Origin: Octopus sinensis
Taxonomy: Eukaryota
Assembly (NCBI RefSeq): GCF_006345805.1
Contig: NC_043003.1
Location: 18,352,001 to 18,416,000 of the forward strand
DNA: 64,000 bases
Reading direction: 5' to 3'
Numbering within the stretch: position 1 is the stretch's first letter; the number at the start of each line of letters is the position of its first letter. The notes under the pieces are model-generated. The model did not search any database. It saw nothing but the letters and a program-made list of their open reading frames with translations, and was not told the origin of the DNA. The position numbers and the translations under genes were made by a program. This document shows positions 5,638 to 59,183 of the stretch, one piece after another.

Positions 5638-6582
5638 GCATGACACCCATATCTGCCATGACTGTGATTTTGCTCGGCTTGATGGGTCTTCTTCTCAAGG
5701 ATGACATAATGCATGACACCCATATCTGCCATGACTGTGATTTTGCTCGGCTTGATGGGTCTTCTTCTCAAGGATGACATAATGCATGACACCCATATCT
5801 GCCATGACTGTGATTTTGCTCGGCTTGATGGGTCTTCTTCTCAAGGATGACATAATGCATGACACCCATATTGCCATGACTGTGATTTTGCTCGGCTTGA
5901 TGGGTCTTCTTCTCAAGGATGACATAATGCATGACACCCATATCTGCCATGACTGTGATTTTGCTCGGCTTGATGGGTCTTCTTCTCAAGGATGACATAA
6001 TGCATGACACCCATATCTGCCATGACTGTGATTTTGCTCGGCTTGATGGGTCTTCTTCTCAAGGATGACATAATGCATGACACCCATATTGCCATGACTG
6101 TGATTTTGCTCGGCTTGATGGGTCTTCTTCTCAGGATGACATAATGCATGACACCCATATCTGCCATGACTGTGATTTTGCTCGGCTTGATGGGTCTTCT
6201 TCTCAAGGATGACATAATGCATGACACCCATATCTGCCATGACTGTGATTTTGCTCGGCTTGATGGGTCTTCTTCTCAAGGATGACATAATGCATGACAC
6301 CCATATCTGCCATGACTGTGATTTTGCTCGGCTTGATGGGTCTTCTTCTCAAGGATGACATAATGCATGACACCATATCTGCCATGACTGTGATTTTGCT
6401 CGGCTTGATGGGTCTTCTTCTCAAGGATGACATAATGCATGACACCCATATCTGCCATGACTGTGATTTTGCTCGGCTTGATGGGTCTTCTTCTCAAGGA
6501 TGACATAATGCATGACACCCATATCTGCCATGACTGTGATTTTGCTCGGCTTGATGGGTCTTCTTCTCAAGGATGACATAAT
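5638..6582. repeat. Minisatellite, 13 x 73 bp, derived from an interspersed retroelement segment
   Basis: Unit GCATGACACCCATATCTGCC...CAAGGATGACATAAT. Four units have 1-nt deletions and there are no spacers. Similar single-copy sequence occurs near 10710-10810 and 18700. Confidence 0.97.
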
Positions 6583-11689: not shown

Positions 11690-12431
11690 CTACAAAAATA
11701 AAAACAAAAATTTTGAAAGATTCACTGGTTTAGGTAGGCGGTTTGTAGCCAAGCTATTATCATAGTTAACCATCAATCCTAGCATGAAAATCCATTCTTG
11801 AATTAGACATAATCATCATAATCATCATTCTAATTATTGACATCATCATCATTATCATTGTCATCATTACCACTATCATCATCACCATTACCATTGTCAT
11901 CATCACAATCATCATAATCATCATTATTGCCAAAATCATCATTGTCATAATCATCATCATCATCCTCAACATTATCATTGTTCGTCATCATCAGCATTGC
12001 CACCGTCATTGTTGTCGTGATGATCATCATCACCATCATTATTTTCATGTTTGTTATTTTTCTATGCTGGCATGGATCAGACAAGACTTGATGACATGGT
12101 ATTCTTACAGCCAGATGCCTGTCTATGGATGACATCAGCTAACAAACGCTCACCTCAGGTTAGGTTTTTGATCAACACTGGTTATCCCAAGTGTTGGATG
12201 AATATCCTGTCATGGAGACATCAAGGCAACTTTGTATTTGTTTATTAGACGCCTGCTCGAGACTCCAAATGAATAACACTATTGTAGTATGATACAGAAT
12301 GCTGTGCGTGACTTTTACCTGAGAATGTACCTTAAGAATGTAAAATATTTATAAAACAAAGCTATGTAGGCCTATAGGCCAACTTACGACCAGTCAGTTG
12401 GAATCAATTGTGATCGTAGGTCGATAATGAC

Positions 12432-12472
<41 letters not shown>

Positions 12473-12504
12473 AATATAATATGTGACAATTATTTGGTAG
12501 CCAT

Positions 12505-12565
12505 GATAAAACTCTGAGTTTCGGATGCCGAGGTGGAAACCCTTGCTGCAATCTCTTCAGTTATC
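12505..12565 (-). ncRNA. Type I hammerhead ribozyme, complete core
   Basis: GAUAA-CUGAAGA-GAUUGC...GGCAUCC-GAAA-CUC A GAG-UU-UUAUC. Confidence 0.85.
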
Positions 12566-12587
12566 CGGCCATTGAAAAAATGCTATC

Positions 12588-12810
12588 TTACAGTAGGTCT
12601 GCTTCGAAGTCTTCCAAGCCTTTGATTTTTGGAGGGAATTTCTCAGATTTAATACCATACAATATATTCCCTGTAGTGTCCTTTCCCTTGTTATAAAAGA
12701 AAGCTTTCCATCTCATGCACTTAATAAGGTCTGTAATTTTCTCCAAAAGCTTTTTAGAGTATAGCTCCCTTGATGGTATAGGTATGTTTTTCATAGAATA
12801 ATCGATGTAG
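12588..12810 (-). pseudogene. N-terminal fragment of a Penelope-like (Naiad-type) reverse transcriptase ORF
   Basis: YSMKNIPIPS..Y.KKL..K....IK.MRWKAFF...YGIKS.K.PP....L.DFE.DL matches the recalled conserved N-terminus of Naiad PLE proteins. Confidence 0.8.
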
Positions 12811-13062
12811 TAGGAGTCGATATTGAATTCTTCTATGGAGCAGAGTCCACAACCGATTTCTGGTGATTTTCCAAAATAAGCTGACATTTTTTCAATGGCA
12901 GCGTGGGTTTCCACCCCGGCATCCGAAACTCAGAGTTTTATCATGGCTACCGAATAATTCTCACATTTTATATTTACAGATAAATTCCTCTATTTACATA
13001 ATATCGAGGTCTCTTTCATTCTTTTGTTGTCTTATCATTTCTATCAATACATATATACATAC

Positions 13063-13123
<61 letters not shown>

Positions 13124-13516: not shown

Positions 13517-13740
13517 ACTCTTTTACTCTTTTACTTGTTTCAGTCATTTGACTGTGGTCATGCTGGAGCACCACCATTAGTCAAGCAAATCGACCCCAGG
13601 ACTTATTCTTTGTAAGCCTAGTACTTATTCTATCGGTCTTTTTTGCCGAACTGCTAGGTTCTGGGGATGTAAACACACCAGCATCAGTTGTCAAGTGATG
13701 TTGGGGGGACAAACACAGACACACAAACATACACACACAC

Positions 13741-13781
<41 letters not shown>

Positions 13782-13969
13782 TATACATATAAATATACAT
13801 ATATACGACGGGCTTCTTTCAGTTTCCGTCTACCAAATCCACTCACAAGACTTTAGTCGGCCTGAGGCTATAGTAGAAGACACTTGCCCAAGGTGCCACA
13901 CAGTGAGACTGAACCTGGAACCATGTGGTTCATAAGCAAGCTACTTACCACACAGCCACTCCTACGCCT
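13517..13969 (-). mobile_element. tRNA-derived SINE, family A
   Basis: Full-length match to the copies at 2119 and 43977. Confidence 0.9.
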
Positions 13970-27694: not shown

Positions 27695-29150
27695 GTATAT
27701 ATACATACAGGTGCAGGAGTAGCTGTGTTCTAAGTAGCTTGCAGCCCAACTACATGGTTCCAGGTTCAGTCCCGCTGTGAGGCACCTTGGGCAAGTGTCT
27801 TCTACTATAGCCTCAGGCCAACCAAAGCCTCTTGAGTGGATTTGGTAGGTGGAAACTGAAAGAAGCCCATCATATATATGTATGTATATATGGCATCCGT
27901 GCTAGCGGGGTGCAAAGAGCACCGTACGAGTGTGATCATTGACAGAGCGGCTATTCGAGTATGATTGTTACCAGCGTTGCCTTACTGGCACTTATGCCTG
28001 TGCTAGTAGGGTGCCAAGAACACCATCCGAGCATGATCGTTGTGATCGTTGCCAGAGCAGCCAACTAGCTTCCGTACCCGTGGCACATAAAAGGGCACCA
28101 TTCGAGCGTGATCCTTACCAACGTCGCTTCACTGACACCTGTGTCGGTGGCACGTGTAAAAAGATTCAAGCAAGGTCATTGCCAGTACTGCCTGACTGGC
28201 CCCTGTGCAGGTGGCACATAAAAAGCAGCCACTACACTCTCAGAGTGGTTGGCATTAGGAAGGGCATCCAGCTGTAGAAACTCTGCCAGGTCAAATCTGG
28301 AACCTGGTGCAGCCATCTGGTTGCCAGCCCTCATTCAAAACTGTCCAACCCATGCTAGCATGGAAAACAGACGTTAAATGATGATGATGATGATGATGGT
28401 TATGATGATATATATATATATTATATATATATATGTACGTATATATACATACAGGTGCAGGAGTAGCTGTGTTCTAAGTAGCTTGCAGCCCAACTACATG
28501 GTTCCAGGTTCAGTCCCGCTGTGAGGCACCTTGGGCAAGTGTCTTCTACTATAGCCTCAGGCCAACCAAAGCCTCTTGAGTGGATTTGGTAGGTGGAAAC
28601 TGAAAGAAGCCCATCATATATATGTATGTATATATGGCATCCGTGCTAGCGGGGTGCAAAGAGCACCGTACGAGTGTGATCATTGACAGAGCGGCTATTC
28701 GAGTATGATTGTTACCAGCGTTGCCTTACTGGCACTTATGCCTGTGCTAGTAGGGTGCCAAGAACACCATCCGAGCATGATCGTTGTGATCGTTGCCAGA
28801 GCAGCCAACTAGCTTCCGTACCCGTGGCACATAAAAGGGCACCATTCGAGCGTGATCCTTACCAACGTCGCTTCACTGACACCTGTGTCGGTGGCACGTG
28901 TAAAAAGATTCAAGCAAGGTCATTGCCAGTACTGCCTGACTGGCCCCTGTGCAGGTGGCACGTAAAAAGCAGCCACTACACTCTCAGAGTGGTTGGCATT
29001 AGGAAGGGCATCCAGCTGTAGAAACTCTGCCAGGTCAAATCTGGAACCTGGTGCAGCCATCTGGTTGCCAGCCCTCATTCAAAACTGTCCAACCCATGCT
29101 AGCATGGAAAACAGACGTTAAATGATGATGATGATGATGATGATTATGAT
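27690..29150 (+). repeat. 744-bp tandem duplication of a composite SINE unit
   Basis: Near-identical ORFs at 27939 and 28683, with one visible substitution. Junctions lie in microsatellites. Confidence 0.95.
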
Positions 29151-33029: not shown

Positions 33030-33445
33030 TTGAAAAGTGCTTTGTGAGTGGGAAATGAGAGAAGTTTCTTCCCTTATTAATGATGTTTGCTGACAAAGAC
33101 AATATTTTAAACTTCTCTTTAATGTAGAGAATATACTTAATACTCTATTCATAAAATTTAATGATTTCTGTAATAGAACTTCAGTTTATAAAAAGGTTAG
33201 TCACTCAGCAGTCTTTCAGGTTCCATATTAGCTGGGATAATGTCGTCATATTGCACATGCTTTTGTTGCTGAATGACACCATATGTTGTACAAATCTTGT
33301 TTTTAAGGTATTTCTTGTTAGTTCCATGTAGGTCATTATTATGTCGTCTCCATTGGGGATGTCGGCTGTGTACACCAGTTTCTTCTCAAGTTTATTTGTT
33401 GTTTAAAGTGGGGAAGGGTCTTCGGTTACATTGATCATTGTGACA
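33030..33445 (-). pseudogene. GIY-YIG endonuclease remnant of a Penelope-like (Naiad-type) element
   Basis: Frameshifted CNRR, LVYTADI and TYMELTRNTLKTRFVQHMVSF...TTLSQLIWNLKD. Confidence 0.75.
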
Positions 33446-51749: not shown

Positions 51750-51998
51750 ATGAAAGGCTGCTGAAAAGTTCCTGACTTTGGGTAAAAGAAAACACAGGAG
51801 GATCAGTTAATTATGATTTTATTCAACACATTCTCCTCTCAGATTCACATACTTATTGCAGTGGCCCTTAGAAAAACTAAAGGACCTCTGCAATAAGTGT
51901 GTGAATCTAAGAGAGGAATGTGTTGTATAGAATCATAATTAACTGATCCTCCTGTATTTTCTTTTACCCGAAGCCAGGAACTTTTCAGCAGCCCCTCC
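51750..51998. mobile_element. Palindromic mariner-derived MITE
   Basis: Two inverted arms of about 120 bp. The right arm encodes KCVNLREECVV*, like a mariner C-terminus, followed by the TIR GGAACTTTTCAGC. Confidence 0.85.
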
Positions 51999-57151: not shown

Positions 57152-57558
57152 GGATCTTTTCGATTTGAACGGTAGTTTTTTCTAGAAATTGTCACCCATA
57201 ATTATGACCCTAGTATCGATCTATTGCATTTCTATCAGTTTTAGGGTTAGGGTTGGTTAGGGGTTGGGGGAAGGGTATCTTTTTTCTTCAGAAATGTAAA
57301 TAAACCCAATCTGTTTCTTAAACGAGGGACATATTCATACGGCACAGAATGTTTTCACCTCAATAGACGTCATTGATTGGTTGAAATTGCAAAAATTGAA
57401 GAAAAAAACAACAAATATCTTACAAACTATAGAATTTTTTCAATAAAGCCAAAAGAAAAAGATGTTTTATAAACACATTCTACCAGTATACGAAGTTTAA
57501 AAGTGTTTAGTTACGTGGAAATTATTTTAAAAAACTGCCGTTCAAACCGAAAAGATCC
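57152..57558. mobile_element. Merlin-type MITE, copy 1
   Basis: TIRs GGATCTTTTCG...CGAAAAGATCC with an exact 8-bp TSD GAGTATTG. Confidence 0.85.
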
Positions 57559-57595
57559 GAGTATTGTAGTTCGCTTGAAGCATTGTGTATTGTTT

Positions 57596-57746
57596 GTAAA
57601 GAATAAAAAGTTTTGAATGGTACAACAATACAATATAATACAGACAATGGGGTGTATACCTGATGTAATTTAGTCATCCCAGGTAGATACCCCGTTGTCT
57701 GTATTATAGTGCATTGTTGTACCATTCAAAACTTTTTATTCTTTAC
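57596..57746. repeat. Fold-back inverted repeat, arms of about 65 bp
   Basis: GTAAAGAATAAAAAGTTTTGAATGGTACAACAAT... / ...ATTGTTGTACCATTCAAAACTTTTTATTCTTTAC. Confidence 0.92.
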
Positions 57747-58756
57747 TAAATTATAAGTTAGAGAAACTTTACGAAAGAGAATCAAGGAGTACGTGGGCAA
57801 AACACAAACTTCGTCGTTTATGTACATATCGTTTTATCTTGTATCTGTATACATACTTAGATCAACATTCTTTGTGGCAAAGAGTTTTTTTTTTGTCTAT
57901 TTATTTATTTATTTATTTATTTATTTATTTTTTTGTAATCTTGCAACGTTTACTAAAAAAGGAAATATAACTGTAATTTAGATTACTTTTCCATTTCGCT
58001 ATGCTGACAGTTAATTCCCATAGTTAAGAGCATATAATCAACCAAACACACACATTATTATTATTATTATTATTATTATTAATATAACGTGTTGCACACA
58101 CATACATATCTGAAAAGTGACAATAATTATCTCTGAAAAAAACAAAACAAAAAAAAAACTAATCATTATCATCAACAACTATTAATAATGGCAACAATTG
58201 CTACTGCAACGTATGGTGGATTTCCGTCGTTTCACGACGAGGATTCAGTTGTTCGAACAACTGAATTACCTGCTCTTGAATTAAACGTCTAAGTGACAAA
58301 CCCTAAATGCTATTCTCAAGCAAAGCTCATAGCTTTGTGGGCAAACCTTCCGTATTGGTAGACGACATCATTCAGCCACACAACTCCCCTTTATAGCATA
58401 GATAAATAAGCTAGACTGAAAAAGAGGGTGAATTACGTCATCTCCTCATACCGACACTCTGGAGACCAATACCGAAGGATCGCCAACTTGTGTGTTACGA
58501 AGTTGTAGCTTTTTAATTACAAGTACAATCCACTCAGCAGGCTTCAACATAGTTTCCGTCTACACAGTTTCACTCATACGGTATGAGTCCATCAAGGGAT
58601 ATAGAAATCAACATTTATCCATGATGCCACATAGCGGTATCGAACCTGGAACCTCAGGGAATGCGAAGTAGAAGCAGCTGTTAATGTTAATATATGCCTA
58701 CATACATACATATAGACGGACAGATATATGTATGTCTGTATATATAAAAATATATA

Positions 58757-59183
58757 GGATCTTTTCGGTTTGAACGGCAGTTTTTTCTAGCCGTGTCATA
58801 TGAAATTGTCACCCATAATTATGACCCTAGTATCGATCTATTGCATTTCAATCTGTTTTGGGGTTAGGGTTAGGAGTGGGGGAAGGGTATCTTTTTTTTC
58901 TTCAGAAATGTAAATAAACCCAATCTGTTTCTTAAACGAGGGACATATTCATACGGCACAGAATGTTTCCACCGCAATAGACGTCATTGATTGGTTGAAA
59001 TTGCAGAAATTGAAGAAGAAAAAAACCAACAAATACCTTACAAACTATAGAATTTTCTCAATAAAGCCAAGAGAAAAAGATTTTTTATAAACACATTCTA
59101 CCAGTATACGAAGTATAAAATGTTTTAGTTACCTAAAAATTATGCTAAAAACTGCCGTTCAAGCCGAAAGGATCCAAAGATCC
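58757..59183. mobile_element. Merlin-type MITE, copy 2
   Basis: Same sequence family, 8-bp TSD AATATATA, right terminus duplicated (GATCC AAAGATCC). Confidence 0.85.

What the first reader, a model, noticed from the sequence alone, without database searches (positions are those of the whole stretch)
12471..12975. Mini Penelope-like element linking the hammerheads to a Naiad-type ORF
Seen: a PLE N-terminal ORF fragment followed on the same strand by an intact hammerhead. The inverted copy at the other end has lost about 19 nt that include CUGAAGA and the 5' arm of stem I. Known: PLE insertions often have inverted, truncated terminal repeats bearing hammerheads. This is the direct evidence for which retroelement class carries the ribozymes.
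Basis: partly seen in the sequence, partly recalled or inferred. Interest (0 to 1): 0.72.

Follow-up and report, generated by a model that had tools for sequence, protein, structure and literature searches.

The report
Template-jump minis of Hydra retrotransposon
This is a dead, shortened copy of a known kind of jumping gene (Hydra-type Penelope, not Naiad) in which the start of the gene is fused straight to its hammerhead-ribozyme motif, and the same fusion recurs at many different breakpoints across the genome, likely because the copying enzyme stops just past the ribozyme and jumps.

Summary
Real, but not Naiad, and larger than stated. The insertion spans 12470-13048 inside (TA)n: a type I hammerhead arm, 293 nt of 5'UTR plus the first 77 codons (start codon lost), and an inverted arm with a 20-nt deletion and a one-sided tail. 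Parent elements in the genome encode a 708-aa protein with a telomerase-like RT first and GIY-YIG last, plus RWK, DKT and CxCx5C motifs: the published Hydra clade, already known to carry hammerheads. The hammerhead core is complete but stem II is decayed; cleavage is untested. The unexpected part: 15 of 24 copies that keep the start codon region jump from codons 5-48 straight to a narrow zone just upstream of the ribozyme, where ordinary arms also end; breakpoints differ, most junctions carry a G, and several form 375-520-nt tandem units of retrozyme size. I read this as recurrent reverse-transcriptase template jumps (inferred), weaker in the young sister subfamily (3 of 30). The scan earlier noted Hydra ends and two-armed insertions on other DNA of this genome; I found no note or paper on the ORF-to-ribozyme jump.

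The parts
12435..12469 (.). (TA)n target microsatellite, left part
   Evidence: sequence; Hydra families insert into (TA)n (Craig 2021)
12470..12586 (-). direct arm: 3' end of the element, ending at the short (tail-less) site; its 5' end lies in the zone where most sister arms end
12498..12571 (-). type I hammerhead motif: stem I (5+5 bp), core, long stem II (decayed here), palindromic stem III, predicted cut after 12510 (GUU)
   Evidence: same stem III as Penelope-3_HM in Craig File S2
12587..12590 (-). junction between ORF piece and ribozyme arm; last base a G that the 3' arm does not template; creates the stop codon
12591..12821 (-). first 77 codons of the Hydra-clade ORF (RWK motif), start codon mutated
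   Evidence: 73% aa identity to residues 1-77 of the intact 708-aa ORF in L017; 90% nt to sister copy L071
   Evidence: alignment to L071 and L083; TGA in relatives
12885..12976 (+). inverted arm with a 20-nt deletion (at 12895-12899) that removes the catalytic heptamer
12977..13048 (+). tail present on the inverted arm only (long end site)
13049..13117 (.). (TA)n/(CATA)n target microsatellite, right part; no target duplication can be read
   Evidence: sequence

Best explanation
The locus is a dead two-armed insertion of a Hydra-clade Penelope-like retrotransposon in (TA)n, whose direct arm is fused to the gene's first 77 codons, likely because the reverse transcriptase stopped just past the hammerhead and jumped back onto the start of the ORF. 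Shown: family, layout, recurrence of the fusion at many breakpoints. Inferred steps: (1) the element's endonuclease cuts both strands of (TA)n and two cDNAs start internally on uncut RNA, one at the short site and one at the tail end, giving head-to-head arms (by analogy with PAc, Frangieh 2024); (2) cDNA often ends 51-80 nt upstream of the ribozyme's GAAA, either at the RNA's 5' end or at a barrier; (3) in a few percent of insertions the enzyme, often with an added or matched G, resumes on the first 250 nt of the ORF and copies back towards the 5'UTR; here it stopped in the 5'UTR and was joined to the second arm; (4) where it ran on through the ribozyme again, tandem units of 375-520 nt with one hammerhead each arose. 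This copy itself is predicted to be inert: no start codon, one complete core with a decayed stem II, no same-strand partner for a dimeric ribozyme.
For: Family: intact 708-aa relatives, RT fold then GIY-YIG fold, Hydra motifs, same N-terminal motifs as Hydra-1_Obim. Two start sites: 37 of 37 simple inverted pairs have one long and one short end, as here (87 loci taken in genome order). Stop zone: 65 of 139 arm 5' ends at -80..-51 against 2 at -110..-81; 28 of 92 against 2 in a second, partly overlapping sample. Uncut template: 1 of 92 ends at the predicted cut site. Recurrence: 15 of all 24 exact matches to a start-codon 24-mer go from ORF +13..+144 straight to the stop zone; 4 of all 9 exact matches to the 24-mer before this junction, the window included, jump there; 7 loci break at about +222..+238, with different junction letters and on two subfamily backgrounds (6 typed). 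G before the arm: 9 of 12 callable census junctions, 5 of 5 among those not seen when the idea arose, 7 of 10 further ones, against 17 of 60 at arm ends in general. Tandem units 375-439 nt (7 loci) and 518-520 nt (L028).
Against: The young sister subfamily replicates the pattern only weakly: 3 of 30 loci examined (of 54) jump to the 3' region, landing at -25, -52 and -165, and L028 lands at -136 without a G. The G can be ORF-templated in several junctions, and G at ordinary arm ends is not clearly enriched (8 of 18, p 0.06; 2 of 12), so a cap is not shown. The census favours breakpoints near the start codon; the bias to the ORF start rests otherwise on 3 of 3 junctions in 87 loci and 3 of 3 in 90 (two shared). 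About a third of arm ends lie inside the ribozyme, so the stop is a peak, not a wall. The ribozyme fold shows no covariation above shuffles. No RNA 5'-end or cleavage data.
Confidence: 0.6

Rival explanations
1. The short units existed first as RNA: transcripts that start just upstream of the hammerhead and end early in the ORF were closed into circles (or made from an earlier mini copy), and the RT simply ran round them.
For: Repeated units within one locus share one junction (L180, L028); unit sizes match animal retrozymes (170-400 nt, PMC7229834 passages).
Against: Junctions carry 1-7 extra letters ending mostly in G, more like polymerase addition than ligation; breakpoints differ between loci; identical junctions within a locus can also come from DNA-level duplication.
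Confidence: 0.17
2. The window copy belongs to one non-autonomous mini family amplified from a master with an internal deletion.
For: 7 loci break within about 16 nt of each other.
Against: Their junction letters all differ, they sit on two subfamily backgrounds, and the census shows breakpoints from +13 to +144. No second exact copy of this junction among 40 scored of 130 candidates.
Confidence: 0.12
3. An ordinary longer insertion lost about 2.5 kb by a DNA deletion after integration.
For: Internal deletions are described in PLE copies (PMC3846280 passages); the 20-nt loss in the inverted arm is of this type.
Against: All 15 census junctions land in the same zone of about 25 nt where undeleted arms also end; most have no microhomology and have extra letters.
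Confidence: 0.09
4. It is a Naiad element carrying a canonical hammerhead.
For: (TA)n target and inverted arm are also Naiad features.
Against: Endonuclease is C-terminal, DKT not DKA, 2.6-kb unit, canonical hammerhead.
Confidence: 0.02

Closest known systems
Hydra clade of Penelope-like elements, nearest published family Hydra-1_Obim (Craig et al. 2021, PMC8557442; read: passages, sections 6 and 11, supplement part 2 and search hits)
   Same: Single ORF, RT then GIY-YIG, RWK, DKT, CxCx5C, CxxC and CxH motifs, unit under 3 kb, (TA)n target, type I hammerhead with short palindromic stem III near the 3' end.
   Different: A different family: other hammerhead sequence, 31-nt stem II region with a bulge beside the core; the recurrent ORF-start-to-ribozyme fusions are not mentioned in the parts read. 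The comparison with Hydra-1_Obim was by eye, not by alignment.
PAc (Poseidon of Anolis; Frangieh et al. 2024, PMC11167929; read: parts 1-2 of 4)
   Same: Two internal RT start sites giving a one-sided tail, both strands primed, uncut RNA as template.
   Different: Other clade; there the start sites lie inside the ORF; no stop zone or template jump reported in the parts read.
Animal non-LTR retrozymes (Cervera and de la Pena 2020, PMC7229834, passages; Li et al. 2026, bioRxiv 10.64898/2026.07.22.740005, part 1 of 5 and passages)
   Same: Short units with one type I hammerhead, sometimes tandem, derived from PLE terminal repeats.
   Different: The window copy is a single unit with a coding remnant; units here differ from locus to locus and are not an amplified family. 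Li et al. propose local tandem amplification of a terminal repeat; 'ORF' and 'deletion' do not occur in their main text.
Naiad clade (Craig et al. 2021)
   Same: (TA)n target, inverted 5'-truncated arm, optional tail.
   Different: Naiads have an N-terminal endonuclease, DKA, 3.4-4.4 kb and no canonical hammerhead.

Membership tests
Hydra clade PLE | RT followed by C-terminal GIY-YIG endonuclease | tested here: met
   Parent ORF in L017: residues 1-406 match TERT (Z 16.0, rmsd 4.4, 283 aligned); residues 550-708 match I-TevI (Z 9.2, rmsd 2.4, 90 aligned), T4 EndoII and UvrC
Hydra clade PLE | RWK motif and DKT motif | tested here: met
   RWK in the window peptide; R, W in 100 of 100 and D, K, T in 99, 100, 95 of 100 aligned relatives
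Hydra clade PLE | CxCx5C linker; CxxC and CxH around the catalytic E and N; no CCHH in the endonuclease core | tested here: met
   C557, C559, C565, C660, C663, C691, H693 in 99-100 of 100; no cysteine between the two GIY-YIG half-motifs of L017, read by eye
Hydra clade PLE | Unit under 3 kb, canonical hammerhead, (TA)n insertion | tested here: met
   Repeat-to-repeat distance 2,578 bp in L017; hammerhead motif at both ends; TA flanks
Hydra clade PLE | Placement in the Hydra clade on an RT tree | not tested
   Reference proteins are only in a paper supplement; no tree built
Naiad clade PLE | N-terminal GIY-YIG before RT | tested here: not met
Naiad clade PLE | DKA motif; no canonical hammerhead; 3.4-4.4 kb | tested here: not met
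   DKT; canonical-order core present; 2.6 kb
Type I hammerhead ribozyme | Conserved core (CUGANGA, GAAA, NUH) with stems I-III | tested here: met
   138 of 179 collected arms have CUGAAGA; one extra nucleotide beside the GAAA
Type I hammerhead ribozyme | Structure supported by covariation | tested here: inconclusive
   91.6% of cells pair in 58 arms, but 164 of 500 shuffles do as well; copies are close and dead
Type I hammerhead ribozyme | Self-cleavage | not testable with these tools
   needs an assay; no genomic imprint of cutting (1 of 92 ends)
Non-LTR retrozyme | At least two tandem units with complete hammerheads | tested here: not met
   One complete core at this locus; met by sister loci such as L180 and L028
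Non-LTR retrozyme | Expressed as circular RNA | not testable with these tools
   only assembled contigs of runs with guessed RNA status

The most novel reading that the evidence does not exclude
These minis are the fossil record of a normal, undescribed step of Penelope replication: the RT starts near the 5' end of the element's RNA, makes a short strong-stop-like cDNA through the hammerhead, and must jump; mis-jumps onto the ORF start repeatedly create 375-520-nt hammerhead units, which is how retrozymes are born from their parent retrotransposon.
Probability: 0.3. Interest if true: 0.75.

Novelty: new variant of a known kind. Interest (0 to 1): 0.46.

Why it matters
The element-ribozyme link itself is known. 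What would matter is the jump: how Penelope-like elements finish their cDNA and form pseudo-LTRs is still open (Frangieh 2024 leaves the later steps unvalidated), and the origin of animal retrozymes from PLEs rests on co-occurrence and trees (Li 2026). A family in which most surviving ORF starts are fused to one narrow zone beside the ribozyme gives exact, testable predictions (RNA 5' end, cDNA stop length, junction letters), and the genome holds sister copies with unbroken ORFs for biochemistry.

Tried and rejected
Rfam scan: no hammerhead among the 150 rows shown of 184; long stem II and TA noise make this uninformative. Pfam: no family for the peptide or three parent ORFs and only weak unrelated hits in 8 relatives; the accessions PF26215 and PF28514 listed could not be named. 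PDB sequence search with the 100-sequence profile: none; Foldseek on the C-terminal domain gave nothing under E 0.001 though VIA-align did. Splicing as cause of the deletion: rejected, breakpoints vary on both sides. Cap-derived G at all arm ends: not supported; G also occurs at ends inside stem II in the young subfamily. Ribozyme cleavage as cause of the stop zone: rejected, the cut site is about 70 nt away and holds 1 of 92 ends. A tight pattern for the +140 junction found only 2 loci, so no amplified family there. Expression: no RNA holder listed; one 311-nt contig of a run only guessed to be RNA bridges the junction with 7 differences, and another holds a different mini; the flank control was mostly repeat-derived; not used as evidence. 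Literature: five searches showed no paper on ORF-to-hammerhead fusions in Hydra PLEs; subscription papers are not covered and the supplements of the 2026 preprint could not be seen.

Full report
Observation. The minus strand holds an open frame at 12890-12591, then a type I hammerhead motif (core 12560-12554, GAAA 12522-12519, predicted cut after 12510). The other end is an inverted copy lacking 20 nt that include the core heptamer. The insertion is larger than given: the inverted arm goes on through a 72-nt tail to 13048, and (TA)n flanks both ends. The 20-nt loss sits between two short direct repeats and recurs in one unrelated arm (2 of 146). The remaining hammerhead has a full core but a broken outer stem II; its forced fold is weaker than 130 of 175 sisters.

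Family. The peptide has 150 scored matches of 1,762 candidates in the own genome (2.72 Gb, animal; earlier scan notes call it likely an octopus, which I did not test). Several extend into unbroken 708-aa ORFs flanked by direct repeats that carry the same hammerhead family, 2,578 bp apart (L016-L018). A confident model of that protein (pLDDT 92.8) matches telomerase RT over residues 1-406 (Z 16.0); its last 159 residues match the GIY-YIG nucleases I-TevI, T4 EndoII and UvrC (Z 9.2, 7.5, 6.1; the family label of the first two is recalled). RWK, DKT, CxCx5C, CxxC and CxH are kept in 95-100 of 100 relatives, K of RWK in 78. These are the defining features of the Hydra clade (Craig 2021, section 11), which has a published octopus member with the same N-terminal motifs and a hammerhead. 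Naiads have the opposite domain order and no canonical hammerhead. Only the last 77 codons of the window frame are coding, and the start ATG is lost. The window's own subfamily (about 90% identity) showed only broken long copies (L071, L083, L085); the unbroken ORFs belong to a younger sister subfamily about 75% identical over this piece.

Ordinary behaviour of the family. A 32-mer of the ribozyme arm has 1,019 exact matches. In 87 distinct loci taken in genome order (90 fetched, 3 duplicates dropped), 42 are single arms, 37 simple inverted pairs and 8 more complex; all 37 pairs have one long and one short 3' end, as the window does. This fits two internal RT start sites with both target strands primed, shown in vitro for another PLE (Frangieh 2024). 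Arm 5' ends pile up 51-80 nt upstream of the GAAA and drop sharply beyond (65 against 2 of 139; 28 against 2 of 92), and only 1 of 92 lies at the predicted cut, so templates were likely uncut.

The fusion recurs. Of all 24 exact matches to a 24-mer over the start codon, 15 pass from ORF +13..+144 directly to that same zone (13 called, 2 added; one more with 120 nt of unrelated filler was not counted). Of all 9 exact matches to the 24-mer before the window's junction, 4 jump there, the window included. Seven loci break at about +222..+238 with different junction letters; six typed fall on two subfamily backgrounds. So these are repeated events rather than one amplified master. They are a small share of insertions (3 of 87). 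The base before the arm is G in 9 of 12 callable census junctions (3 not callable), 5 of 5 among loci not seen when the idea arose, and 7 of 10 further ones, against 17 of 60 at arm ends in general. Where copying ran on, tandem units of 375-439 nt (7 loci) or 518-520 nt (L028) resulted, each with one hammerhead.

Against. In the first 30 of 54 loci of the young subfamily, 17 ORFs run on to the edge of the 1.5 kb held, and 3 jump to the 3' region, at -25, -52 (each with one extra G) and -165: same kind of event, rarer and less focused. G is not clearly enriched at ordinary ends (8 of 18 and 2 of 12) and may be ORF-templated at some junctions, so a capped 5' end is a hypothesis only. The census favours breaks near the start codon. 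The ribozyme fold has no covariation support and no expression data could be used.

Mechanism. Most likely (0.6) the RT began on uncut RNA just downstream of the ribozyme, stopped in the zone upstream of it, jumped to codon 77-78 of the ORF, copied back into the 5'UTR, and was joined head-to-head to the second cDNA, which began at the tail end. RNA-level circles (0.17), one master mini family (0.12), DNA deletion after insertion (0.09) and Naiad (0.02) are the rivals.

Known and new. PLE hammerheads with short palindromic stem III that likely act as dimers, and pairs on opposite strands, are published (Cervera 2014, results section); so are Hydra hammerheads and inverted arms. Retrozymes were proposed to derive from PLE terminal repeats. 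Five literature searches and the scan's own notes showed no description of recurrent ORF-start-to-ribozyme fusions; the scan did note Hydra ends and two-armed insertions for other stretches of this genome. Interest 0.46.

Noticed in passing
window about 33070-33420, minus strand: Decayed C-terminal endonuclease fragment of another Hydra-type element (profile E 7e-13); no hammerhead seen downstream.
   Followed up: partly
L016-L030 (young subfamily), e.g. L017:2006-2087: The young subfamily with unbroken ORFs and 95-100% identical copies has C instead of U at core position 4 of its hammerhead: the element spread with an altered ribozyme core.
   Followed up: partly
L021, L022, L032, L033: A second Hydra family (48% aa identity to the window piece) carries a minimal hammerhead with almost no stem II but the same palindromic stem III.
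   Followed up: no
L250, L261, L263: Young copies whose 3' ends lie only 19-37 nt into the ORF and run straight into (TA)n: possibly further RT start sites.
   Followed up: no
L180 and L028: Tandem minis with three ribozyme arms and identical junctions in each unit: retrozyme-like arrays with coding remnants.
   Followed up: partly
window 5913-6348: Tandem repeat of about 73 bp, seen as repeated peptides in the ORF list.
   Followed up: no
window 27936-29021: Near-identical segments 744 bp apart.
   Followed up: no
window about 57250-58990: Duplicated segment about 1.6 kb apart next to CCCTAA-like repeats.
   Followed up: no
window 51817-51932: Long hairpin, matched below threshold to a plant miRNA model; probably a small inverted-repeat element.
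   Followed up: no
window 12285-12430 and 13540-13960: Both flanks hold other interspersed repeats (many partial contigs; recurring peptides).
   Followed up: no
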